DNA of 64,000 bases from positions 775-64,774 of the IMG/VR virus record IMGVR_UViG_3300029911_000025; one strand, given 5' to 3'. The stretch comes from a virus. Its lineage: Duplodnaviria > Caudoviricetes. The notes beneath the pieces are model-generated. The model saw nothing but the letters and a program-made list of their open reading frames with translations, ran no database searches and had not been told where the DNA came from. Shown in pieces: positions 20,334-54,326 of the stretch; position 1 is the stretch's first letter; each line of letters starts with the position of its first letter. The position numbers were made by a program, and so were the translations under genes.

Positions 20334-22993
20334 AGGAGTTGGTCCGGGCCGGGGTTGAACAGGAGGCGGGTGGCGTCGATCGCAGTCCCGACGATTTGCA
20401 AAGCGCCAGAGGAGGGAACCGTCGCCGTCATACCGCCGGAGGTCGAAAGGAAGTAGAGCGCGCCAGGGGTCAGGCCGGACAGGCCGGTGATAATCGCGCC
20501 GGGGAGATAGACCTGCGCGGTAGCGGAGGAGGAAAAGGACCCGAGGACGAAGCCGTTCGCCGGTTTCGAGGCATCGGTCGCATCGGCCAACACAAGACCG
20601 CTGGCCCCGTAGCTAACAAGTTGTCCGGCCGTCAGACTGACTGTAGCTGTTCTACTGACCGTCATCGGAACCGGGGCGAGCGGAGTGGCGTTGGCCCCCG
20701 TCGTGGCCCCCGACGCCCCGGCGGCGTTCGCGGCTTCAAGGAAGTAGGTGTAACCGGCGGCGATAGCGAGCGGCGTATCCGTGTAGGACGTCGCGAGGCC
20801 GGTCCAGATCACCGAGGCCGATCCGAACGACGCGCTAAGGCCCGGCGCGCGGAACAGGGTGTAGGCCGTCACGTTGTCAACTTCCGCATTTGCGGACCAT
20901 GAAAGGGCCGCACCCCCGGCGACTGCTGTCGCTGTGAAGCTCGTCGGAGTTTTAGGGGCGCCCGCCGTCCCAGAACCGTAACCCGCGCCCGTGGGCGTGT
21001 AAGTGTAGACCGTGCAAGTGGAGATATCTTGCACTTGATTGTTGTACGTGTTGAAGCTTTGCAGCTTTATCTTAAGCGCGACCCCTATGTATCCCGCAGG
21101 CAGCGGGAAGGTAAACAGGGAGTCATCAAGACGTCCGTACAGCGCCCCCGTGGTGTGCGCGCCTGCCGTGGTGCCATATTGGCCCCGATACAGGTCTGTG
21201 AGGTCGTATGCGTTCGCTCCAATTAGTGTGACAGTTTCAGGACTAAGAAGTTCAAAGCTGGTGGAGCAGACGCCGTCCTGGATGATACCAACGGTCACAC
21301 CGTTAGCCGCGTCCGCAGCGGTGGAGGCCGAGGCCAACTCACCATTGCTTTCCACGAGACTAACCGCCAGAGTATGCCCCGTATCGGGGTTGGTCCCGCC
21401 GTAACTCGCAAGACTAGCGGTGAGGTATCCTTGGCGCCCAACTGCCGAGATGGTGCCGATCTCAGCATAAGTCGTTCCGCCATCGGTGGAGACATTCACG
21501 AGTGCGCCGCCCCAGTTCGTATCAGAGCCAGAAGCGAGAATGCAAAGAATCGGGACACTAGAGCCGTTGTTCAAGCGCTGCGCAGCCAAGACATTCGGTT
21601 CAAACACAATCGGGTCGTTGGCAGTACCAGGGTTCACTTGCTGATTGCTGTAGGCGCGGCTTCCGCCTTGCGTAGTCTGCCCTATTGGTTGGCCAAGCGT
21701 ACCGGGGAATTCTTCGCATGTAAGCATGAGCGAGCCATCATCCTGCTCTTCAATCTCACGTATGCGAACAGGGTAGTTAACAACTTGAAGGATCGTGTCA
21801 GTGATCATGCCGCAGTCCATAGGCTCAAGCTGTGAGTACTCCGGGCCTACAGTGAAAACGTAGTTTTCGCGCAAGTAAGCCATGCGCTGCTCCAGCAAGC
21901 TGGCGACTTGAAACGCCATCGGTAGATAGCAGATTTCGTGTGCCTGAACCGTAGAACCATAGCGGCGCCCTATGAGCTCGTTCTGGCTTTGGTCTATGAC
22001 GTCGATCGGAACTGGGTCGTAATTTTGAGTGCGGTCCAGAACCTCCAGCGCCAGTGCGTTAGACGCATCAAACCAATCGGTGATGCTGACCAGAACAGGA
22101 TCGGCATCTTTATCTTGTATGTAGTCTTCGTCAGTAAAGTTGAACACCAACGATATGGGCGGCAAGTAGGTCACACCGTTGCCAGTGACCTCGGCGTCAC
22201 CAAACGGAACGAACTTCAGGGAGTACCCGGTCCAGGCGGGCGCCGTGTTAGTTATTTGCAGCCAGCGCGAAATGATGCCGGACGCCACTTCTTGGTTGTT
22301 GATAAACGGTGAAATTCCCCAGCCCATCGCCCGGCAATACGTCTGATATGCGCTGTCGCCCGTAGTGGTGGCGTCGGGACCGGATAGTAGTGAGCCACCG
22401 TCAAACGACGTAGTATCAAGGAACTGCGCGGGGAAGAGCGCGCCGTACTCGGGGTTCGTCAAGAACCGCTGGACTTCTAGCGCACAATCTGCGTCGCCCG
22501 CGCCGGTGTATCCCGTGTTATAGTTCGGGGCTTTGAGTTCAAAGGATGTCTGCGGAACCGTGGGCGTGCTGCCAAGATTGTAGTTCTCTGCTGCCATGTA
22601 GCAGATACCCTGATAACCGAAAGCATCGTTCGGATGCGTGGATACCAAGTACGACCATGGTGATTGCGGTATAGTACCCTCAAAGAATGAAAACCCGGCT
22701 GCAACAAACCCCGAGTAGTATCCTTGGTCCACCCATGTTTTGTCAACGCCGTCGGGGCACGGACCTTCACTCAGCGCCAGGAGTATGGTCGCCGAATAGG
22801 TGTAGGATTGCCCCTTGCCGCCGCCCTTGCCACCGCCCTTGTGGCCGTGAACGGTGTAGTCGGTGTAATAGATCAAGTTAGGTGTCGCGCGCACCAACCC
22901 ACCGGCGTAAGGTACGCAAGTGACCATCGACGATGTTTGGATACTAAGGCCCGAATAGTCAGGGACCGTAGTAGCAGGACCTCTACCTCCCAT
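20330..22993 (-). CDS. Tail tip / central fiber protein (GTA-type phage-tail) with FN3-like domain
   Basis: 887 aa; follows NlpC/P60; LEPMD and L.RG.YGT motifs; FN3-like segment. Confidence 0.8.
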   Translation of the reverse strand: MGGRGPATTVPDYSGLSIQTSSMVTCVPYAGGLVRATPNLIYYTDYTVHGHKGGGKGGGKGQSYTYSATILLALSEGPCPDGVDKTWVDQGYYSGFVAAGFSFFEGTIPQSPWSYLVSTHPNDAFGYQGICYMAAENYNLGSTPTVPQTSFELKAPNYNTGYTGAGDADCALEVQRFLTNPEYGALFPAQFLDTTSFDGGSLLSGPDATTTGDSAYQTYCRAMGWGISPFINNQEVASGIISRWLQITNTAPAWTGYSLKFVPFGDAEVTGNGVTYLPPISLVFNFTDEDYIQDKDADPVLVSITDWFDASNALALEVLDRTQNYDPVPIDVIDQSQNELIGRRYGSTVQAHEICYLPMAFQVASLLEQRMAYLRENYVFTVGPEYSQLEPMDCGMITDTILQVVNYPVRIREIEEQDDGSLMLTCEEFPGTLGQPIGQTTQGGSRAYSNQQVNPGTANDPIVFEPNVLAAQRLNNGSSVPILCILASGSDTNWGGALVNVSTDGGTTYAEIGTISAVGRQGYLTASLASYGGTNPDTGHTLAVSLVESNGELASASTAADAANGVTVGIIQDGVCSTSFELLSPETVTLIGANAYDLTDLYRGQYGTTAGAHTTGALYGRLDDSLFTFPLPAGYIGVALKIKLQSFNTYNNQVQDISTCTVYTYTPTGAGYGSGTAGAPKTPTSFTATAVAGGAALSWSANAEVDNVTAYTLFRAPGLSASFGSASVIWTGLATSYTDTPLAIAAGYTYFLEAANAAGASGATTGANATPLAPVPMTVSRTATVSLTAGQLVSYGASGLVLADATDASKPANGFVLGSFSSSATAQVYLPGAIITGLSGLTPGALYFLSTSGGMTATVPSSGALQIVGTAIDATRLLFNPGPDQLL

Positions 22994-46934: not shown

Positions 46935-47447
46935 CTATGCCGCTAGATCTTTAAAGTCTACAATCGCTTTAATGTGCGAGTCTACCATAACGCGCACTGC
47001 GCCGTTCTGTTCAATACCGATTACCAAAGCTGAACGGTTAGCAAAGCTGGACCCGGCTACAAACCGCAGCAGATCACCGGCTGAGAAATCATGTAACAGT
47101 GCGCGCGATAATACTTTGCCCGAAGTATCGCAGCCCGCCATAATCTTTGCCATTACGTTGTCGGGAAGCAACGCGGGCTCGCCTTCGGCGCTTTTCAGGA
47201 GATAGTTCACGTCGCGCGTCGCTTTTACTAGCGCCAGTGCAGCATCGTCTTCTGTTCTACAGAACAAGTATCGTGGCCACCGTGGGATCTCTGTGTCTAC
47301 GGCCTTAAACACTGTGCGCCCACGTGTAGGGGCCTTGACGCGTTGCTTTTCCACAGTATAGGGGCAGAATACTTGGAGTCCTAGGGCGACCAAGCGGTCG
47401 CGCACTAAGAATTCTGTAGCGCCAACGGTGACTAGGACCGTCCACAT
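46935..47447 (-). CDS. NusG/RfaH-like transcription antiterminator
   Basis: NGN domain (W.V......E..V...L...G....P...P..PRYLF) plus a KOW-like GD.......F segment. Confidence 0.75.
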   Translation of the reverse strand: MWTVLVTVGATEFLVRDRLVALGLQVFCPYTVEKQRVKAPTRGRTVFKAVDTEIPRWPRYLFCRTEDDAALALVKATRDVNYLLKSAEGEPALLPDNVMAKIMAGCDTSGKVLSRALLHDFSAGDLLRFVAGSSFANRSALVIGIEQNGAVRVMVDSHIKAIVDFKDLAA

Positions 47448-47559: not shown

Positions 47560-47920
47560 AAAAAACGCCGCAAATGCACAGTATTGGCCACCCCGTAAGT
47601 TATTGTTTTTATTAAACCTGAAACAAGCGTTGCCATGGCTGCGCACGCAACCAAAGTGAGCACAAACTATTAAAAAGCAAAGCAAAAAGGGCAAAAAACT
47701 ACGAATTGAACATAAGCCTCCGCACGGTAACCCCATTTTGGTGGAACCTTTACTAAACTAATTGGGATTTATTTAGTAAGGGGCGGAGCATATACTGCTT
47801 GCGGGCGGCTGTGTAGCAAACGCCTTTGTAGCAAAAACCGAATTTACTGAGTAAAAACAAGCACTTACGCGAAAATGCCCAAAAGCTAACCCATTGTTTT
47901 TATTAAACAATAAAGGAATT
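47560..47920. promoter_or_regulatory. AT-rich divergent control region with a 16-bp direct repeat
   Basis: ATTGTTTTTATTAAAC at 47602-47617 and 47893-47908; TATACT at ~47792; strand switch point. Confidence 0.55.
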
Positions 47921-48533: not shown

Positions 48534-49303
48534 ACGGAGATACAGGCCGACGGCGACCCTAGTCGGTGTAATGTTATCACCGCCCGCCCGGTCGGCCTGT
48601 ATCTCTCGCATTTTGGCCTTTACGGGCCGTCCCCCTACGCGGGCGGGCGGTTGCCGTACCCCGTGCAGCGCCAGCCGCCCCACGGTCCAAATAATGCTTG
48701 CATCTCCCATTAAAACGACCGACAAAGAGGTCGGCGCATAGTGCGCCTATGGAGAGCCTTGCATTTTGTAAACACGGGGCAACGCCCTAGGACCCGCCTT
48801 ACTTAGCGACCCGGATGGGCGCCACTAGGCCAACAGTACAACCTAACGCACAGGCATTGCGTAGGGAGCCCGGTTACAAGCGCCACCCCAAGAAGCGCCC
48901 CGCCCGATAATGCCACAGCCCGAGGTTAAGCCCGCCACAGCGTAGCCAGTGCGGGCGCCAAGGCAGACGGCGCGGCAAAGGGAGGCAGGGATACGGCTAG
49001 TAACAGAGCCGCGCTAGGGCGAAGCTTTGGCTGTATACAGCCGCAACAGTGCAACCGCCCGCCCCGCCATAAGCAACCGGCCACAACTAAGGCGATAGGT
49101 GAGACCAAGCGACTATAAGGACCGAGCAGACCCTAGCGCTACACAATAAAACTCTGCGATGCGCGAAGGGCGGCTGTGGCCAAGCTATAAGCGACGCATG
49201 AAAAACGCCCCATACCCGAATTTGGGGAGCGCCCGTTGGCGCAAATACAGCGACCCCGCCCCGCTATGCTGCAAAGCATGGCGGGGCGGTGACGTTTTAC
49301 TGA

Positions 49304-49354
49304 AGGCCGAAACGGCTATGCCGTCCAGACGTTATACGTTTGCTGACGAGGCCT
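49304..49354 (+). ncRNA. Hammerhead ribozyme HHR1, type II, canonical core
   Basis: AGGCC-GAAA-CGGC tat GCCG-TC^-CAGACG ttata CGTTTG-CTGACGA-GGCCT; predicted cut after C49325. Confidence 0.88.
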
Positions 49355-49389
49355 AATGCCCGATCAGATAACACTGAAGGACCAAAACA

Positions 49390-49989
49390 ATGACCAAGAC
49401 CGTTACTAAAGACACTCGCCCCTCCAAGGGCGGCGAACCGACCGTGACCAAAGTGGCTACGGCGCCCGCGCACGGCGCAACGGACAAAGCGCCGCATACT
49501 AAGCGCGCCGTTGCTGAAAACGCGGCCGCGACCAAGCTTGCCAAGGCCGAGAAAACCTTGGCCGACGCCAAGGCGGCGGTGACCGTTGCAACCGCAACCG
49601 CCACTAAGGCTAAGGGCGCCGCCCGCAAGGACGCGTTTACCGCCAAGGCGGCGGCCGAACTGGCTGTCATCGCGGCAAACAAGGCGGTCAACGCCCTAAA
49701 GCGTGAGGCAATGACCCCGGAAGAACGCGCCGCAACCGCCAAGCCCGCCAAGGCGGCGACCAAGACGCCCCGCGTCGCGGTGAACCGGACGATCTCCAAG
49801 GGGTCGGTCGTGTACGCCAACGCCAAGGGCGGCTGGACCTTGTACATGGTCACGCTGACCCTGAAGCACAAGGACACGGACAGCGCGACCGCCGCGCACA
49901 AGGATGGCGCCGCGAAAGCGGGTTACCCCGCGACCAAGCCGCTGGACTTCAAGTGGATGGACGCCAAGGGGTACATCAAGCTCGGCTAG
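49390..49989 (+). CDS. Lys/Ala-rich (H1-like) protein with conserved C-terminal domain (paralog 2)
   Basis: RBS AAGGA; WTLYMVTLTLKHKDT...LDFKWMDAKGYI. Confidence 0.8.
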   Translation: MTKTVTKDTRPSKGGEPTVTKVATAPAHGATDKAPHTKRAVAENAAATKLAKAEKTLADAKAAVTVATATATKAKGAARKDAFTAKAAAELAVIAANKAVNALKREAMTPEERAATAKPAKAATKTPRVAVNRTISKGSVVYANAKGGWTLYMVTLTLKHKDTDSATAAHKDGAAKAGYPATKPLDFKWMDAKGYIKLG

Positions 49990-50038
49990 TGTCCGCCCGC
50001 AAAGACCCCACGCCCGAAAATGGCGTGGGGTCCGAGCG

Positions 50039-50093
50039 CCTGTCCACGCCTATCGCTGGCGTGCCGATGATGGCCAAGCATGGCCGAAACAGG
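50039..50093 (+). ncRNA. Hammerhead ribozyme HHR2, type III, variant core CCGAUGAU
   Basis: CCTGTC^-CACGCC tatcgct GGCGTG-CCGATGAT-GGCCA agca TGGCC-GAAACAGG; predicted cut after C50044. Confidence 0.8.
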
Positions 50094-50101
50094 AGACCAA
50101 G

Positions 50102-50335
50102 ATGGCAAAGCTAACTTGCGCTCGGGTTATAGAGCGCGGTCCCAGAGGCGGGACCTATGTACGCCACGTTCTGGAAGAGAACGGCACGGAGATCGGGCGC
50201 TTTGTTAAGCGCTCCGAATGCCAGCGCGCCTATGGCAAGCGCCGCGCCGCGTTGCTCGCCGAGGGGAAAAACGTGTTCACGTTCACCCGCGACTGGCATG
50301 GTCACTGGGACGGAGTGGACCGGCGTGCGCTCTGA
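50102..50335 (+). CDS. Hypothetical early protein
   Basis: RBS AGGAG overlaps HHR2 stem III. Confidence 0.7.
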   Translation: MAKLTCARVIERGPRGGTYVRHVLEENGTEIGRFVKRSECQRAYGKRRAALLAEGKNVFTFTRDWHGHWDGVDRRAL

Positions 50336-50567
50336 CCCAAAGCTGAGCGCTGCGGACATCGCGATAGCGGTGAACCGCGCGCCAACCATGTTCAAAGCTT
50401 GCCAGCGCGTCGCCGCCCATGGGCGGGAGCGTTGCACTAGCGAAGACTTCGCCAAAGCGCTGCGCCGCTATGACGCGGACACGGTGAAGCGCTTGGAAAA
50501 TCGCTTTGCCGCGTTGTCCGCTGGAGAGCGCGCGGCGATCATATCCGCGCTCATGGCGCGCCTATGA
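50325..50567 (+). CDS. Hypothetical protein, paralogous to the N-terminus of the next ORF
   Basis: APTMFKACQ...CTSEDFAKA...D..T.....RFA; GTG start after GGAG. Confidence 0.6.
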   Translation: MRSDPKLSAADIAIAVNRAPTMFKACQRVAAHGRERCTSEDFAKALRRYDADTVKRLENRFAALSAGERAAIISALMARL

Positions 50568-51139
50568 TCGCCCCGACCATCTTCGCGGCATGCCAGAGCA
50601 TCTCGGCCGTACACTGTACGGTCGAGGGCTTTGCGCGCGCCGTGCAAAACGTGGACGCGGCGACGCTAGCCAAGGCTGAGAAGCGCTTTGCCAAGGCAAA
50701 GCCCGATCAGCAGATGGCCATGGCGCGTCAGTTCATGTACAACGAAAAACTCCCTCATGAGAAGGAACCGACTATGAGAGATCTCGCCGCAATGTGGACA
50801 GGGAAGGCGATCTTTACCGACGCCTTCCTAAAAGTCCTGCCAAGGCGCCAGACGACCGCCCAAGAGCCTGAGCCGCGTGTGGCGACTAAGAGGGTAGTGA
50901 CGACCCGCCAGACTCGCGTCCGCCAAGGCGCGACGATCTACTATACAGCGGGACCGGCTCAGCACCGACGTGGTCGCAACGTGATGAACTGGACGAACTA
51001 CATGGTCCGGACCATCCTCGCCCATGGTAACACGCGGGACGCGGTCGCGGCTCACAGAGAGTCCGGCGCGTATCAAGAGAAGAAGCTGGACTTCAACTGG
51101 ATGTTCAAAAATCAGTACATTACCAAGGCCGACCCCTAA
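50564..51139 (+). CDS. Two-module protein with the conserved C-terminal domain (paralog 3); possible internal start at 50774
   Basis: APTIFAACQ module plus WTNYMVRTILAHGNT...LDFNWMFKNQYI. Confidence 0.75.
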   Translation: MIAPTIFAACQSISAVHCTVEGFARAVQNVDAATLAKAEKRFAKAKPDQQMAMARQFMYNEKLPHEKEPTMRDLAAMWTGKAIFTDAFLKVLPRRQTTAQEPEPRVATKRVVTTRQTRVRQGATIYYTAGPAQHRRGRNVMNWTNYMVRTILAHGNTRDAVAAHRESGAYQEKKLDFNWMFKNQYITKADP

Positions 51140-51150
51140 CCGGGTCGGCC

Positions 51151-51216
51151 GTTCATGTCCAAGGCTAATGCCGCCTTGCCGATGATGACCCAAGGCATAA
51201 GGGTCGAAACATGAAC
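51151..51216 (+). ncRNA. Hammerhead ribozyme HHR3, type III, variant core CCGAUGAU, with loop I-loop II complementarity
   Basis: GTTCATGTC^-CAAGGC taATGCC GCCTTG-CCGATGAT-GACCC aaGGCATaa GGGTC-GAAACATGAAC; predicted cut after C51159. Confidence 0.85.
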
Positions 51217-51227
51217 AGGAGATCTAG

Positions 51228-52331
51228 ATGACAATCTGGAGAGCAAACATATACGCTGCGAAATGCAGTGTATGCGGAATGGAGCTCCCTCCAAACGAGG
51301 GGTGCTACCGCGTTGACTCAGTAATGGGGCGCAAATTCTACTGCGCGACACACAGGTACGAGTTCGACGTAAGCGGCGAACCGGCCCCTGAGCCCGCGTT
51401 TGCCAAGAACGCGGCAACGTCAGCGGTCAACGTAGAGGGCGTCGACGTCGACGACCTTGCGCGCAAGACTGCTGACCTCACCTTCGAAAAGGTGGCCGAG
51501 CATTTCGTGGCCACGGTCGGCCCCGGCGTCGAGAGGATGCTCCCAGCGCTTGTGCGGTCCGAGCTTCTCAAGGTCACCAAGGTCGCGGAGATCAAGATTG
51601 GTAAGGCGCCCAGTGTAAAGCTGGACAAGAGCCACGCCATGCTCCCGACGATACTTCAGGCCATGGTGGCGGGGTCCAACCCATTCTTGGTCGGCCCAGC
51701 CGGTTCCGGCAAGACCACACTGGCGAAGCAAATCGCCAAGGTCATGGGGCTGAAGTTCTACATGGCGGCGCGAGTCACCAGCGAGTTCAAGCTTATCGGC
51801 TTCGTGGACGCCCATGGCGCCACGGTTCGCACAAGCTTCCGCGAAGCGTACGAATACGGTGGAGTCTTTCTCTTCGATGAGGTGGACGCCAGCGACGCGG
51901 ACGCCATGACAAGCTTTAATGCCGCGCTGGACAACGGCATGTGTGACTTCCCGAACGGTCTTGTGCAAGTCCACAAGGACTTCCACGCCATTGCGGCGGG
52001 CAATACCTTTGGGCGCGGCGCAGACCGCCAGTATGTCGGCCGCAATCAACTGGACGCGGCCACTATCGACCGGTTCGACTTCTTCGAAGTCGACTATGAT
52101 GAAGCGCTGGAGCACGAAATCGCTGGGGACACGGAATGGACCACCTATGTCCAGAAGATCCGCGCGCAAGTGATGGCGCAACAAGTCCGGCACATTGTCA
52201 GCCCGCGTGCCTCTATACGGGGCGCGCGCATGCTCGCCGCCGGTATGGACCGCGGAGTCGTCGCGGACGCCACGATCTGGAAAGGTCTGGCGGCTGACGT
52301 ACGGCGCCGCATAGAGAACGGGGTGCTCTGA
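51228..52331 (+). CDS. MoxR/CbbQ/CobS-like AAA+ ATPase
   Basis: Walker A GPAGSGKT, Walker B FLFDEVD, AAGNT and LDAAT.DRF. Confidence 0.9.
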   Translation: MTIWRANIYAAKCSVCGMELPPNEGCYRVDSVMGRKFYCATHRYEFDVSGEPAPEPAFAKNAATSAVNVEGVDVDDLARKTADLTFEKVAEHFVATVGPGVERMLPALVRSELLKVTKVAEIKIGKAPSVKLDKSHAMLPTILQAMVAGSNPFLVGPAGSGKTTLAKQIAKVMGLKFYMAARVTSEFKLIGFVDAHGATVRTSFREAYEYGGVFLFDEVDASDADAMTSFNAALDNGMCDFPNGLVQVHKDFHAIAAGNTFGRGADRQYVGRNQLDAATIDRFDFFEVDYDEALEHEIAGDTEWTTYVQKIRAQVMAQQVRHIVSPRASIRGARMLAAGMDRGVVADATIWKGLAADVRRRIENGVL

Positions 52332-53170
52332 TGCGCCTGTCACAGTCCGGTAACATAGTCGTTCAGTTTGGTGACTCGTTAGACGACGTTGTGCGTTACT
52401 TGCGCACGACGCCGCGTGTCTGGACCTACAACAACTCCAAGACTAATGACTACGGTCACCGCTGGACTTTTGGCCTTGACTACGAGGGTGCGCTGGAGCT
52501 CGCCCTCAAAGGATGGCCCGACGGCACGGACCGCCTTGCCAAGGGCGTCAAGGCTATGCCCGCGCCACAAGCGGTCCACCATAAGCGCCAGTTCGATGTC
52601 GGGGGTGACTTCCCCGATGTCGGCCGCTTCGTGAGTGGTCAGCCTGACTGCATGGTCCGGCGCGGGCGCCAGTCCGGCATAAAGCCGGTGATCCACTTGG
52701 TAATCGCGCCCATGACTCACAGCGAGGTCACCGCCTATGAGTTCCTCACCATGGGGACTGCTATGGCATTGGTCATCGACCAGTTGGAGGCCTCGGGACG
52801 CCGCGTGGAGCTGGACGTTGCGTTCTACCGGCGGCTCCCCAACGGCAAATCGCTAGAGGGCTGGAAGATAAAGCGCGCTGACGAACACTTGGACTTCGGG
52901 GCGCTTGCCTTTAGCATTGCGCATCCGGCCTCTGTGCGGCGCCTCGGGTTCGCTTTGCGGGAGCGCACGCGGTACAGTATGCAGGACGATGACTACGGAC
53001 ACTCCATACCCATCACGGCTGAAATCCTGCCGCTCATCGACGCTGAGCGCGCCTTGTGTATCAACATAGCGTACTCCGACTGTAAGACCACGCGCGGCGC
53101 CGTGCGCTCGTTGGTCAACATAATCAACAACGCGGCGGGCGAGACCATTGTGGAGGCAGACTATGACTGA
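52331..53170 (+). CDS. vWA-like partner of the AAA+ ATPase
   Basis: Coupled to the ATPase; AL.GW, G...DV....G.P..M and HP...RR motifs. Confidence 0.65.
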   Translation: MRLSQSGNIVVQFGDSLDDVVRYLRTTPRVWTYNNSKTNDYGHRWTFGLDYEGALELALKGWPDGTDRLAKGVKAMPAPQAVHHKRQFDVGGDFPDVGRFVSGQPDCMVRRGRQSGIKPVIHLVIAPMTHSEVTAYEFLTMGTAMALVIDQLEASGRRVELDVAFYRRLPNGKSLEGWKIKRADEHLDFGALAFSIAHPASVRRLGFALRERTRYSMQDDDYGHSIPITAEILPLIDAERALCINIAYSDCKTTRGAVRSLVNIINNAAGETIVEADYD

Positions 53171-53332
53171 AGAACCACTGTACCGCATCCAAGTCAAGCG
53201 GGGCGACCAATGGTCGTATATTCTAAAGCCCATGTCGCTCGACATGGAGCGGCGGACTCTGAACAGCCTGCCGCCACCGATCAGGGTGACCGACGAGTTC
53301 GGCGCCCCGATCCCGGACCTCGTGTGGTACAG

Positions 53333-53746
53333 ATGACCGCCCCCTTCACCAGCGCCACCGAAGCACGCGCCTTCGTGCTCGGTGGCAACGCGCGGTTCAC
53401 CATAGTATCAAAGGTGACCAAGTATCGGTACACCTATCGCGTGAGAGCCAGTAAGGACAAGCGAATCTCATTCGTGCGCCTGCTGACCGAGCCGGGACAC
53501 TACACCTATCTCGGCTTCATCAAGAACGGAGAGCTCCGCCTTAGCTCGAAGTCCAAGATGACCACTGGATCTCTGCCAGTGGAGGCGTTCGCTTGGTTAC
53601 TGCGGCGCTTGAACAAGGGCGAGCTCCATCCCATGCTGGAGATATGGCATGATGGTCACTGCGGGCGTTGTGGCAGAGCACTCACAGTGCCGAGTTCCCT
53701 CGCAAGCGGGTTCGGCCCAGAATGTGTGCTCCATGTCCACCACTAA
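53333..53746 (+). CDS. DUF6011-like Zn-finger protein
   Basis: C.RCGR.LT.P.S...G.GPEC. Confidence 0.75.
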   Translation: MTAPFTSATEARAFVLGGNARFTIVSKVTKYRYTYRVRASKDKRISFVRLLTEPGHYTYLGFIKNGELRLSSKSKMTTGSLPVEAFAWLLRRLNKGELHPMLEIWHDGHCGRCGRALTVPSSLASGFGPECVLHVHH

Positions 53747-54053
53747 GCTCATGGCAATCCTTGCCATAGGACCCGTATCAGGGCCGCTTTTGTTTTACGC
53801 CTACCATTGCGCCCGCAAGCGCCAATGGTGGCGCGTAGCAGCGTCCCTGAGCCTGCTAGGGGCGTTTTATGTGCTGGCGCCCGCCCTGCTAGTTCGCCTG
53901 TTAGTTTAGGCTTATACTTGCTTCGTTGGCTAACCCGCGAGCACGGCTCCGGCCGCGCGGGTAGTTCACAAGTACAGAGGAGAGACCATCATGAATCCCG
54001 GAGGTTAAACCCTTCAAGCCAAGGCCGACTCTTCCTGACCCGCGGAGTCGGCC

Positions 54054-54103
54054 GGGTCCACGGCTATCTGTCGTGCCGATGTGCGCAACTAAGCGCGAAA
54101 CCC
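54054..54103 (+). ncRNA. Hammerhead ribozyme HHR4, type III, variant core CCGAUGU
   Basis: GGGTC^-CACGGC tatct GTCGTG-CCGATGT-GCGC aactaa GCGC-GAAACCC; predicted cut after C54058; AAGGAGG follows. Confidence 0.72.
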
Positions 54104-54116
54104 CAAGGAGGTCCTA

Positions 54117-54326
54117 ATGCTTATGCAAGGAAACAAGCCGGTGAAGTCCGGTGAACGAGTCATCGATCAGCTTGGCCGGTCGTGGCAGTACGAGCGTGAT
54201 ATTCCGGCCGCAAAGAAAACGCCCGCCATTGTCACGGTGCGGCGCATCGACATGACCGGCGAGCCCGTGCGCGGCGAGACTAACTTCGCCATCCCCATGT
54301 TCCCAGCCTACTGGGTGAAGTCGTGA
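54117..54326 (+). CDS. Hypothetical early protein
   Basis: Strong RBS AAGGAGG directly after HHR4. Confidence 0.65.
   Translation: MLMQGNKPVKSGERVIDQLGRSWQYERDIPAAKKTPAIVTVRRIDMTGEPVRGETNFAIPMFPAYWVKS

What the first reader, a model, noticed from the sequence alone, without database searches (positions are those of the whole stretch)
49256..54119. Serial hammerhead ribozymes punctuate the phage early operon (candidate self-processing mRNA system)
Seen: four same-strand intergenic elements have all three hammerhead stems, a GUC cleavage triplet and GAAAC (HHR1 49304-49354, HHR2 50039-50093, HHR3 51151-51216, HHR4 54054-54103). Stem sequences differ between copies while pairing is kept. Each is preceded by a strong GC hairpin (49256-49289, 50004-50032, 51127-51150, 54023-54053) and followed by a Shine-Dalgarno and start codon (49390, 50102, 51228, 54117). 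Known: hammerheads self-cleave to give 5'-OH and 2',3'-cyclic-phosphate ends, and they occur in phages with mostly unassigned function. Inference: the hairpin-ribozyme-RBS cassette cuts one early transcript into separately stabilised units (hairpin-protected 3' end, 5'-OH structured 5' end), a protein-free analogue of T7's RNase III processing sites.
Basis: partly seen in the sequence, partly recalled or inferred. Interest (0 to 1): 0.92.

Follow-up and report, generated by a model that had tools for sequence, protein, structure and literature searches.

The report
Serial variant hammerhead ribozymes, phage operon
Four hammerhead-type self-cutting RNA motifs, each behind a strong hairpin and in front of a ribosome site, really do sit between genes of this uncultured peat phage, but such clusters are already known in phages and three of the four have an altered catalytic core whose activity is untested.

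Summary
HHR1 (49304-49354) is a type II hammerhead with a consensus core. HHR2 (50039-50093), HHR3 (51151-51216) and HHR4 (54054-54103) are type III folds. A structural descriptor finds only these in the 64.8-kb genome: 3 type III against a mean of 0.07 in shuffles, and 1 type II against 0.0.

HHR2 and HHR3 read CCGAUGA+U, that is U4C plus an extra U after A9. HHR4 reads CCGAUGU and has no A9. Rfam finds none of the four at its gathering score.

The elements belong to a type III family found in viral contigs and bacterial genomes. In that family position 4 is C or U about equally often (10 against 10), the stems covary and loop I pairs with loop II. The layout of hairpin, ribozyme and ribosome site recurs: 17 of 31 elements have an abutting hairpin, against 12% of random positions.

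Clustered phage hammerheads and the mRNA-processing idea were published in 2011 (PMC3088659). An engineered stem-loop/ribozyme/RBS system works in this way (PMC9872166). Cleavage here is untested. Earlier notes of this scan report similar cassettes and C4 cores in other genomes.

Verdict: a real feature, a new variant of a known kind, of moderate interest.

The parts
49256..49289 (+). Hairpin 1: 15-bp GC-rich stem, followed after 5 nt by UUUU, ending 14 nt before HHR1
   Evidence: -32.5 kcal/mol
49304..49354 (+). HHR1: type II hammerhead with a consensus core (CUGACGA ... GAAA, A15.1-U16.1). GUC lies at 49323-49325, so the predicted cut is after 49325. Stem II is open (5 bp), stem III is closed by UAU, and stem I has 6 bp.
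   Evidence: The type II descriptor gives 1 hit against 0.0 in shuffles. Rfam Hammerhead_II aligns over its full length at 17.7 bits, below the gathering score of 37.
49390..49989 (+). Gene of 199 aa with no Pfam or PHROG match. It is a paralogue of the 191-aa gene.
   Evidence: BLASTP E = 1e-12
50004..50032 (+). Hairpin 2: 11-bp stem, starting 15 nt after the stop codon and ending 6 nt before HHR2
   Evidence: -22.7 kcal/mol
50039..50093 (+). HHR2: type III hammerhead fold with core CCGAUGA+U (U4C and an extra U after A9). The predicted cut is after 50044. Stems I, II and III have 6, 5 and 5 bp. Loop I GCU pairs with loop II AGC. The ribosome site AGGAGA overlaps the 3' strand of stem III.
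   Evidence: The model built from other contigs only scores it 66.4 bits, E = 3e-18. Loop pairing.
50102..51139 (+). Three genes between HHR2 and HHR3: 77 aa (50102-50335), about 81 aa (50322-50567, start uncertain) and 191 aa (50564-51139)
51127..51150 (+). Hairpin 3: 9-bp stem that abuts HHR3. The TAA stop of the 191-aa gene lies in its loop.
   Evidence: -19.3 kcal/mol
51151..51216 (+). HHR3: type III hammerhead fold with core CCGAUGA+U. The predicted cut is after 51159. Stem III has 8 bp. A 5-bp loop I/loop II pseudoknot forms (AUGCC with GGCAU).
   Evidence: Model R2 scores it 60.7 bits. Pseudoknot p = 0.013 against loop shuffles.
51228..53909 (+). Gene block between HHR3 and HHR4: AAA_5/CobS-like ATPase (51228-52331), DUF7192 protein (52331-53170), small ORF (53163-53336), DUF6011 protein (53333-53746) and a 58-aa ORF (53733-53909)
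54023..54053 (+). Hairpin 4: 10-bp stem that abuts HHR4
   Evidence: -17.7 kcal/mol. A C>T variant in its loop at 54043 appears in one run.
54054..54103 (+). HHR4: type III hammerhead fold with a degenerate core CCGAUGU (U4C, no A9), a 4-bp stem III and no loop-loop complementarity. The predicted cut is after 54058. It is probably weak or inactive.
   Evidence: Model R2 scores it 29.5 bits, E = 1e-6. Rfam HH9 gives a partial match of 20.6 bits. Loop complementarity.
54117..54326 (+). Gene of 69 aa after HHR4, preceded by AAGGAGG

Best explanation
The four elements are hammerhead-class RNAs in the plus-strand replication (probably early) gene block of an uncultured siphovirus-like peat phage. 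HHR1 is a consensus type II hammerhead. HHR2-4 belong to a phage and prophage type III lineage in which core position 4 is C or U and an extra U usually follows A9.

Proposed mechanism, all inferred:
1. RNA polymerase reads through the GC hairpin that follows the upstream gene.
2. The hammerhead folds. In HHR2 and HHR3 a loop I/loop II pseudoknot helps the fold, and the abutting hairpin may stack on the short stem III.
3. The RNA cuts itself 3' of C17.
4. The upstream RNA then ends in a 2',3'-cyclic phosphate a few nucleotides after a stable hairpin.
5. The downstream RNA starts with a 5'-OH and the stem I hairpin. Its ribosome site lies just behind the freed 3' strand of stem III.
6. One long transcript thus becomes separately stabilised and separately translated units.

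HHR1-3 are likely to be active. HHR4 has lost A9 and the pseudoknot and is probably slow or dead.
For: What is shown here is the fold, the homology and the layout.

- Chance. The three-way junctions are far beyond chance.
- Independent model. A covariance model built only from 27 elements of other viral contigs hits HHR2, HHR3 and HHR4 at 66.4, 60.7 and 29.5 bits. The next best match in the window scores 14.2 bits.
- Consensus relatives. The family includes members with the fully consensus core CUGAUGA. An example is L099:1743-1796.
- Position 4. In a scan that left position 4 free, the distinct elements split 10 C against 10 U, with no purine.
- Stem covariation. 97.5% of cells are paired, 11 of 16 pairs change on both sides, and 0 of 500 shuffles reach this. 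Alignment A1 gives 12 of 19 pairs.
- Loop contact. The last 3 nt of loop I are complementary to loop II in 16 of 25 distinct loop pairs. The permutation mean is 4.5 and 0 of 5000 permutations reach 16.
- Strand. G-U pairs in stem I of HHR1 and HHR4, and the placement of all copies on the coding strand, point to RNA rather than DNA.
- Layout. A GC hairpin abuts the element in 17 of 31 distinct family elements, against 240 of 2000 random positions. An SD plus start codon lies within 60 nt in 25 of 31.
- Serial copies elsewhere. L099 has 3. L096, L020, L023, L065, L105, L108, L111 and L112 have 2 each.

From papers (passages read):
- Tandem prophage hammerheads cleave about 2-kb polycistronic RNAs in vitro (PMC3088659).
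- In the engineered pRAP system, stem-loop + ribozyme + RBS units give balanced expression, and without the stem-loop only the last cistron is expressed (PMC9872166).
- According to PMC3088659, a U4C viroid hammerhead loses much activity in vitro but stays active enough in vivo.
Against: - No cleavage assay and no RNA data exist for this phage.
- Rfam 15 finds no hammerhead at its gathering score. The window gives 0 hits. HHR1 scores 17.7 bits against 37. HHR2 gets no hammerhead match at all in an 81-nt search. HHR4 scores 20.6 bits against 52. However, Rfam also misses the consensus-core (U4) relatives in 14 loci.
- U4 is treated as invariant in the published consensus, and core mutants were discarded from the published alignments (PMC3088659 methods).
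- HHR4 lacks A9.
- The per-sequence loop-shuffle test of the pseudoknot is weak: the mean is 2.79 observed against 2.12 shuffled, and only HHR3 and two others reach p < 0.06.
- The family members were retrieved with patterns taken from HHR2 and HHR3, so the scores and the invariance of the other core letters are partly built in.
- A single transcription unit is not shown.
- No close relative of the phage was found, so conservation at orthologous sites could not be tested.
- Population variants are uninformative.
Confidence: 0.55

Rival explanations
1. The elements derive from hammerheads but are catalytically dead or very slow. Under this reading the C4 cores (and the missing A9 in HHR4) abolish useful cleavage. 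HHR2-4 would then act only as structured leaders between genes, for example as barriers to 5' exonucleases, protein-binding sites or translation insulators. Only HHR1 would cut.
For: - U4 is part of the strict consensus.
- PMC3088659 says that the U4C variant 'considerably decreases activity in vitro' and that most core mutations cause drastic loss.
- HHR4 also lacks A9 and the loop-loop pairing.
- Rfam models do not recognise HHR2.
Against: - C4 is as common as U4 in the family (10 against 10), and no purine occurs there.
- C4 members keep stems I and III through compensatory changes, and most keep the loop I/loop II pairing. Their other core letters were fixed by the retrieval pattern, so they give no evidence.
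- C4 persists across diverged related contigs (L010, L054, L088) and in prophage-like regions of different phyla.
- This pattern looks like selection on a working ribozyme, not decay.
- PMC3088659 reports that the viroid U4C variant works in vivo.
Confidence: 0.2
2. The ribozymes cut, but segmental mRNA stabilisation is not the purpose. There are three alternatives. First, cleavage could release the ribosome site from stem III and so switch on translation. Second, segments flanked by two ribozymes carry 5'-OH and 2',3'-cP ends and could be ligated by a host RtcB-type ligase into circular RNAs. Third, slow C4 cores could act as timers or as cofactor sensors.
For: - In HHR2 the site AGGAGA overlaps 3 nt of the 3' strand of stem III. 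In HHR3 and HHR4 the site starts 0-2 nt after stem III.
- Same-polarity ribozymes flank 0.7-kb, 1.1-kb and 2.9-kb segments.
- PMC3088659 raises spliced or circular products as a possibility.
- An A6C phage hammerhead prefers Mn2+ over Mg2+, so core variants can change cofactor preference (PMC7151607).
Against: - Perreault et al. looked for spliced or circular products and found none ('data not shown').
- The ribosome site overlaps stem III in only one of the four elements.
- These readings do not explain the abutting hairpin, whereas the 3'-end protection model and the pRAP result do.
Confidence: 0.15
3. The hairpins are transcription terminators, and each ribozyme lies in the leader of a separately initiated transcript. 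There would then be no polycistronic precursor.
For: - Hairpin 1 is followed after 5 nt by UUUU.
- A weak terminator-like site lies at 53896-53911 and a promoter-like site at 53965-53992, both upstream of HHR4.
- A long non-coding stretch (48534-49389) precedes HHR1.
Against: - Hairpins 3 and 4 abut stem III with no gap, and hairpin 2 ends 6 nt before it. A promoter cannot fit between them, so the 5' strand of stem III must be transcribed together with the hairpin.
- Hairpins 2-4 have no U tract.
- Promoter-like and terminator-like sites in 46.5-58 kb are no more frequent than in shuffles: 5 against 4.6, and 13 against 13.0.
Confidence: 0.07
4. The elements are a chance resemblance or a DNA-level repeat with no RNA function.
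For: Rfam gives no hit at its gathering score.
Against: - Descriptor hits number 3 and 1, against 0.07 and 0.0 in shuffles.
- CM E-values range from 1e-6 to 3e-18.
- Changes are compensatory, and the G-U pairs work only on the + strand.
- All copies are intergenic and lie on the coding strand.
Confidence: 0.02

Closest known systems
Clustered hammerhead ribozymes that flank single genes or short gene blocks in prophages (Perreault et al. 2011, PLoS Comput Biol, PMC3088659; passages read)
   Same: Several same-strand hammerheads of mixed types (II and III) lie within a few kb between phage genes. The functional proposal is the same: long phage transcripts are processed into operon-length or gene-length mRNAs. 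A loop-loop pseudoknot serves as the tertiary contact.
   Different: Here three of four cores carry C4, two also have an extra U after A9, and one lacks A9. That paper's filters discarded such hits unless they were tested. Its main text mentions neither upstream hairpins nor ribosome sites: 0 occurrences of terminator, stem-loop, Shine-Dalgarno or ribosome binding. Its supplements were not seen.
[quoted passage not shown]
   Same: The unit order is the same: stem-loop, self-cleaving ribozyme, RBS, ORF. The ribozyme stays on the 5' end of the downstream cistron and the stem-loop ends the upstream one. The stem-loop was found to be essential for expression of all but the last cistron.
   Different: pRAP is engineered, uses a twister ribozyme and is driven by T7 RNA polymerase. 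The phage cassette is natural, uses hammerheads and is untested.
Natural hammerhead core variants: the viroid U4C variant (Ambros and Flores 1998, known to me only as cited in PMC3088659; the paper is not held), and an extra nucleotide after A9 in some viroid and satellite hammerheads (recalled from De la Pena and Flores 2001; not checked)
   Same: The two deviations are the same: C at position 4 and one inserted nucleotide between A9 and stem II.
   Different: The published cases are single variants in plant pathogenic RNAs. Here both changes occur together in a DNA phage and recur in a family of viral and bacterial sequences.
RNase III processing sites between phage T7 early genes
   Same: Intergenic RNA structures cut a polycistronic early transcript into units whose 3' ends are protected by hairpins.
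   Different: In T7 a host protein enzyme cuts inside the hairpin. Here the cut would be autocatalytic, next to the hairpin, and would give 5'-OH and 2',3'-cP ends.
Rfam hammerhead clan CL00010 (Hammerhead_II RF02276, Hammerhead_3 RF00008, HH9 RF02275)
   Same: The junction topology, the GAAA box, the A15.1-U16.1 pair and the GUC site are the same. HHR1 aligns along the whole type II model.
   Different: No element reaches a gathering score. Rfam also misses the U4 members of the same type III family.

Membership tests
Hammerhead ribozyme (strict consensus as in PMC3088659 methods) | Three helices around a junction, in type I, II or III topology, with paired positions next to the core | tested here: met
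   MFE folds. The descriptor hits only these four elements in the genome. HHR1 is type II and HHR2-4 are type III.
Hammerhead ribozyme (strict consensus) | 5' core box C3 U4 G5 A6 N7 G8 A9, tested for HHR1 | tested here: met
   CUGACGA at 49343-49349
Hammerhead ribozyme (strict consensus) | 5' core box C3 U4 G5 A6 N7 G8 A9, tested for HHR2 and HHR3 | tested here: not met
   CCGAUGA followed by an extra U: C at position 4 and a one-nucleotide insertion before stem II
Hammerhead ribozyme (strict consensus) | 5' core box C3 U4 G5 A6 N7 G8 A9, tested for HHR4 | tested here: not met
   CCGAUGU: C at position 4 and no A9
Hammerhead ribozyme (strict consensus) | G12 A13 A14, the A15.1-U16.1 pair and H17 (not G) at the cleavage site | tested here: met
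   GAAAC and GUC are present in all four elements, in the right register
Hammerhead ribozyme | Score at or above the Rfam gathering threshold of a hammerhead model | tested here: not met
   The window gives 0 hits. HHR1 scores 17.7 against 37. HHR4 scores 20.6 against 52. HHR2 gets no match. Control: U4 relatives with otherwise consensus cores are also missed.
Hammerhead ribozyme | Homology to elements that have a consensus core | tested here: met
   Model R2, built from other contigs only, scores 66.4, 60.7 and 29.5 bits. That family contains CUGAUGA members, and position 4 splits 10 C against 10 U.
Hammerhead ribozyme | Stems supported by compensatory changes | tested here: met
   12 of 19 pairs and 11 of 16 pairs change on both sides, and 0 of 500 shuffles reach these values. 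Caveat: the sequences were partly selected for folding, and alignment A2 is fitted to the model.
Hammerhead ribozyme | Tertiary contact between stem I and stem II (loop-loop pairing or pseudoknot) | tested here: inconclusive
   Family level: 16 of 25 loop pairs, with 0 of 5000 permutations reaching this. HHR3 has 5 bp (p = 0.013), HHR2 has 3 bp and HHR4 has none. HHR1 was not tested.
Hammerhead ribozyme | Site-specific self-cleavage that gives 5'-OH and 2',3'-cyclic phosphate ends | not testable with these tools
   No RNA run holds this DNA. This needs bench work.
Clustered phage/prophage hammerheads (Perreault 2011) | Several hammerheads close together, on the same strand as the genes, flanking single genes or short blocks in a phage genome | tested here: met
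   Four elements lie within 4.8 kb and flank blocks of 1, 3 and 5 genes on the + strand of a 64.8-kb phage genome
Stem-loop/ribozyme/RBS processing cassette (engineered pRAP) | A stable stem-loop just upstream of the cleavage site and an RBS just downstream of the ribozyme | tested here: met
   The gap from hairpin to element is 14, 6, 0 and 0 nt, and the hairpins fold at -17.7 to -32.5 kcal/mol. The ribosome site starts 0-22 nt after the element, or overlaps its 3' end in HHR2. At family level 17 of 31 have the hairpin and 25 of 31 the SD plus start.

The most novel reading that the evidence does not exclude
The unit of hairpin, C4/U9a hammerhead and RBS is a dedicated, modular RNA 'punctuation mark' that spreads among unrelated phages and prophages. 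Within it, the C4 core is not a defect but a tuned form, for example slower, pH-dependent or metal-dependent, that sets when each segment of an early transcript is released. The abutting hairpin would do two jobs: it would stack on the short stem III before the cut and protect the 3' end afterwards. This would give bacterial and phage hammerheads a defined function and would add a functional Y4 subclass to a core long treated as invariant.
Probability: 0.25. Interest if true: 0.65.

Novelty: new variant of a known kind. Interest (0 to 1): 0.4.

Why it matters
The biological role of the many bacterial and phage hammerheads is still open. A 2019 review says that 'additional work is needed' (PMC6765202).

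This phage gives a compact test case. It has four ribozymes in 4.8 kb, each in a stop codon, hairpin, ribozyme, RBS layout. That layout matches a design which synthetic biologists found necessary for ribozyme-split operons.

The family analysis also shows that C at core position 4, usually treated as disqualifying, is about as common as U in one phage type III lineage. That lineage is invisible to Rfam. Current hammerhead censuses may therefore undercount phage ribozymes, and the 'invariant' core may tolerate a pyrimidine swap.

Both points can be tested by simple in vitro transcription and by reporter assays.

Tried and rejected
- Rfam. The scan at gathering scores gave 0 hits in the window. 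E-value scans gave only sub-threshold hammerhead matches or none. I do not take this as refutation, because the consensus-core relatives are missed too.
- Close relatives of the phage, for orthologous covariation. blastn of 49000-54300 against phages gave no match. tblastn with the ATPase gave only matches below 60% identity in unrelated phages. The search for related loci in viral contigs and in metagenome contigs found no relative. A pattern specific to the window's lineage gave one locus, L113, which is a chance match at 9.4 bits.
- Shared genes. None of the 88 loci that carry a folded element shares a protein with the window at E <= 1e-5. The seven loci that have tblastn hits do not carry the element.
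- Expression. No RNA holder is listed among the 24 runs, all of which are peat metagenome DNA.
- Population variants. Contigs of 4 runs were laid. No variant falls within any ribozyme, and one C>T falls at 54043 in the loop of hairpin 4. This is uninformative.
- Pattern chance rate. Of the 88 loci from the first collection scan, only 12 pass my descriptor and 15 pass the CM. The other 73 are chance matches and were not used.
- Pseudoknot. The per-sequence loop-shuffle test has little power. I replaced it with a positional test. In one search, 3 of 30 sequences (L038, L008, HHR4) did not parse and were left out. In one search, 2 (L008, L096:7546) did not parse.
- Promoter and terminator consensus scan. 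It gave no excess over shuffles.
- Literature. Searches found no paper that describes a recurrent C4 hammerhead class in phages or a natural hairpin-hammerhead-RBS cassette. 'CCGAUGA' plus 'hammerhead' gave one unrelated paper on therapeutic ribozymes. The library holds only open-licence PMC papers and bioRxiv. Supplements, including Perreault's Figures S1-S7 and alignments, could not be seen and may bear on both points.
- Rejected readings. I rejected a C/D-box or k-turn reading of GCCGAUGAUG, because the archaeal sRNA matches score at most 10.9 bits. I also rejected a DNA-repeat reading.

Full report
CONTEXT

The window is bases 775-64774 of a 64,774-bp assembly with 58% G+C. All 24 public runs that hold the stretch are peat metagenome DNA, and the population is nearly clonal.

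On the minus strand, 17.8-47.4 kb carries the small and large terminase subunits, portal, major head protein, tape measure and tail genes. A NusG-like gene lies at 46935-47447.

The plus strand from 47.9 kb to the end of the window, and again from 1 to 17.5 kb, carries small ORFs without known families and replication or nucleotide genes. These are a CobS-like AAA ATPase, DUF7192, DUF6011, primase, methyltransferase, DNA polymerase, helicase and thymidylate synthase.

The four elements lie in the first 6 kb of this plus-strand block. 'Early operon' is therefore a reasonable inference from gene content. It is not shown.

THE OBSERVATION

Every coordinate in the finding is correct.

- HHR1 (49304-49354) reads GGCC GAAAC-GGC-UAU-GCC-GUC CAGACG-UUAUA-CGUUUG CUGACGA GGCC. 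It is a type II hammerhead with a fully consensus core.
- HHR2 (50039-50093) is a type III fold whose stems I, II and III have 6, 5 and 5 bp.
- HHR3 (51151-51216) is a type III fold with 6, 5 and 8 bp.
- HHR4 (54054-54103) is a type III fold with 6, 4 and 4 bp.

MFE folding of each hairpin plus element returns the hairpin and the three-way junction. The z-scores run from -5.6 to -2.7, and 0 of 200 shuffles fold as well.

A descriptor that demands the three stems, a C[U/C]GANGN or CUGANGA box, GAAA, the A-U closing pair and a non-G cleavage nucleotide finds exactly these four on both strands of the genome. In 100 dinucleotide shuffles it finds a mean of 0.07 type III and 0.0 type II.

The hairpins fold at -32.5, -22.7, -19.3 and -17.7 kcal/mol. 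They end 14, 6, 0 and 0 nt before the elements. Each element is followed by a ribosome site and an ATG (49390, 50102, 51228, 54117).

WHAT THE FINDING DID NOT SAY

Only HHR1 has the consensus 5' box. HHR2 and HHR3 read CCGAUGA plus an extra U before stem II. HHR4 reads CCGAUGU, which has C4 and no A9.

The published consensus treats U4 and A9 as fixed. Perreault et al. removed any hit with a core mutation from their alignments unless it was tested (PMC3088659 methods).

Rfam 15 reports nothing at gathering scores.
- HHR1 aligns along the whole Hammerhead_II model but scores only 17.7 bits, against a gathering score of 37.
- HHR4 gets a partial HH9 match of 20.6 bits, against 52.
- HHR2 gets no hammerhead match even in an 81-nt search.

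ARE HHR2-4 HAMMERHEADS?

I searched IMG/VR with a pattern taken from HHR2 and HHR3. It returned 88 loci. Most are chance matches: 12 pass the descriptor and 15 pass a covariance model.

A second scan fixed the GGCC stem II but left core position 4 free. It gave 22 loci. Their distinct elements split 10 C against 10 U, with no purine. The script counted 11 C because one L023 element matched in two registers.

CM searches of the flanks added members that the patterns had not demanded. One has the fully consensus core CUGAUGA with no insertion (L099:1743-1796). Others have G, UU or UA in place of the extra U.

A model built from the 27 IMG/VR elements alone scores HHR2, HHR3 and HHR4 at 66.4, 60.7 and 29.5 bits. 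The next best place in the window scores 14.2 bits.

The stems covary. 11 of 16 pairs change on both sides, 97.5% of cells are paired, and 0 of 500 shuffles reach these values. Slid controls are 34-50% paired. The smaller alignment A1 gives the same picture.

The last three nucleotides of loop I are complementary to loop II in 16 of 25 distinct loop pairs. The permutation mean is 4.5 and 0 of 5000 permutations reach 16. There are at least three covarying types: UCC/GGA, GCU/AGC and GCC/GGC. This is the kind of pseudoknot that Perreault et al. showed to be needed for fast cleavage.
- HHR3 has 5 bp (AUGCC with GGCAU).
- HHR2 has 3 bp.
- HHR4 has none.

Rfam also misses the U4 members of this family, so its silence says little.

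The same family occurs in bacterial assemblies. C4 forms are in Oscillospiraceae, Butyricicoccus and Tautonia. U4 forms are in Caulobacter, Allorhizobium, Myxococcota and Planctomycetota.

Caveats. The family was retrieved with patterns derived from the window, so the scores and the invariance of the other core letters are partly built in. Alignment A2 is fitted to the model.

My conclusion is that HHR2-4 are homologous to hammerheads and are a natural Y4 variant. Whether C4 cores cut at useful rates is not shown. HHR4 looks degenerate.

THE CASSETTE

Among 31 distinct family elements (27 from IMG/VR and 4 from the window), 17 have a hairpin ending within 4 nt of the element. The criterion was at least 7 bp, at least 4 G-C pairs and at most one mismatch. 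At random positions of the same loci the figure is 240 of 2000.

25 of the 31 have an SD-like site plus a start codon within 60 nt. 22 of the 31 have the stop codon of an ORF of at least 50 codons within 120 nt upstream. HHR2's hairpin ends 6 nt upstream and so does not count under this criterion.

Serial same-strand copies occur elsewhere. L099 has three within 1.3 kb. L096, L020, L023, L065, L105, L108, L111 and L112 have two each. None of these loci shares a protein with the window. The unit therefore recurs in unrelated phages.

MECHANISM

All steps below are inferred.

Hairpins 3 and 4 abut stem III, and hairpin 2 ends 6 nt before it. No promoter can fit between them, so the ribozyme must be transcribed by read-through of the hairpin. 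Hairpins 2-4 have no U tract.

Cleavage 3' of C17 would leave the upstream RNA with a hairpin, then 5-20 nt, then a 2',3'-cyclic phosphate (for HHR2-4). The downstream RNA would carry a 5'-OH, the stem I hairpin, the rest of the ribozyme and then the ribosome site. Stem III is short, with duplex energies of -5.1, -8.4 and -4.2 kcal/mol, so the two products should separate.

The closest experimental support comes from engineering. In pRAP, stem-loop + twister + RBS units convert a polycistronic mRNA into monocistrons in E. coli. Without the stem-loop only the last cistron was expressed (PMC9872166, passages).

From recalled knowledge, not checked here: 5'-OH ends are poor substrates for the 5'-end-dependent RNase E pathway, and 3' hairpins block 3' exonucleases.

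Rivals are listed separately. They are dead or slow structural elements, other uses of cleavage (ribosome-site unmasking, circularisation, timing), separate transcripts, and chance.

WHAT IS KNOWN

Perreault et al. 2011 described multiple hammerheads that flank genes in prophages. They showed in vitro cleavage of about 2-kb tandem constructs and proposed that long phage transcripts are processed into operon-length or gene-length mRNAs. A 2019 review repeats this as a suggestion that needs more work.

According to that paper, U4C is known from a viroid, with reduced in vitro activity but enough in vivo. The original paper is not held. An A6C phage variant prefers Mn2+ (PMC7151607).

My searches found no paper on a recurrent C4 class in phages or on a natural hairpin-hammerhead-RBS unit. 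The main text of Perreault et al. mentions neither hairpins nor ribosome sites. Supplements could not be seen.

Earlier notes of this scan, which are unpublished AI notes, report similar cassettes and C4 cores in many other genomes. They agree with what I tested here but are not independent evidence.

VERDICT

I file the feature as a new variant of a known kind: clustered phage hammerheads, here with a C4/U9a core lineage and an explicit hairpin-ribozyme-RBS layout.

My confidence that these are hammerhead-class RNAs is about 0.9. My confidence that HHR1-3 cleave in vivo and serve mRNA segmentation is about 0.55. Interest is 0.4.

Noticed in passing
window 48534-49389: A stretch of about 850 nt without a convincing gene lies between the 64-aa ORF and the gene at 49390. 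It is rich in long GC hairpins, for example around 48543-48600, and it ends at hairpin 1 and HHR1. Rfam gives only a weak narK-like match of 18.9 bits at 48684-48734. It could be a long structured leader or a non-coding RNA.
   Followed up: partly
window 47602-47617 and 47893-47908: An exact 16-nt AT-rich repeat (ATTGTTTTTATTAAAC) occurs twice in the AT-rich divergent region between the late (-) and replication (+) gene blocks. The second copy lies just before the first + strand gene. It may be an operator or a promoter element.
   Followed up: partly
window 46935-47447 (-): A NusG-like protein (Pfam NusG, E = 8.5e-8; PHROG 'transcription antiterminator') heads the structural-gene strand. A phage-encoded NusG paralogue suggests processive antitermination of the late operon.
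   Followed up: partly
window 49390-49989 and 50564-51139: The two genes that are each followed by hairpin + hammerhead (HHR2, HHR3) are paralogues (BLASTP E = 1e-12) and share a C-terminal ...LDF(K/N)WM...YI motif. Neither matches Pfam or PHROG. The cassette may have been duplicated together with the gene. The 81-aa ORF at 50322-50567 resembles the N-terminus of the 191-aa protein.
   Followed up: partly
window 53909-54022: This 114-nt gap before hairpin 4 holds a weak terminator-like site (53896-53911), a promoter-like site (53965-53992), and a 5-codon mini-ORF with a good ribosome site (ATG 53991, stop 54006-54008). HHR4 may therefore belong to a separate transcription unit.
   Followed up: no
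L099:1743-3022 (+); L105:4567-4908; L111:2044-2383; L108:2495-3544: Other viral contigs and bacterial assemblies carry two or three same-strand copies of the same type III family within 0.3-1.3 kb. Some C4 copies are nearly identical in sequence in Oscillospiraceae and in the planctomycete Tautonia. This suggests strong constraint or horizontal spread.
   Followed up: partly
window 20560-20601 (-): This is the only other place in the window with CCGAUG...CGAAAC. It lies inside the 887-aa tail gene and scores 14-15 bits with the models. I judge it a chance match.
   Followed up: yes
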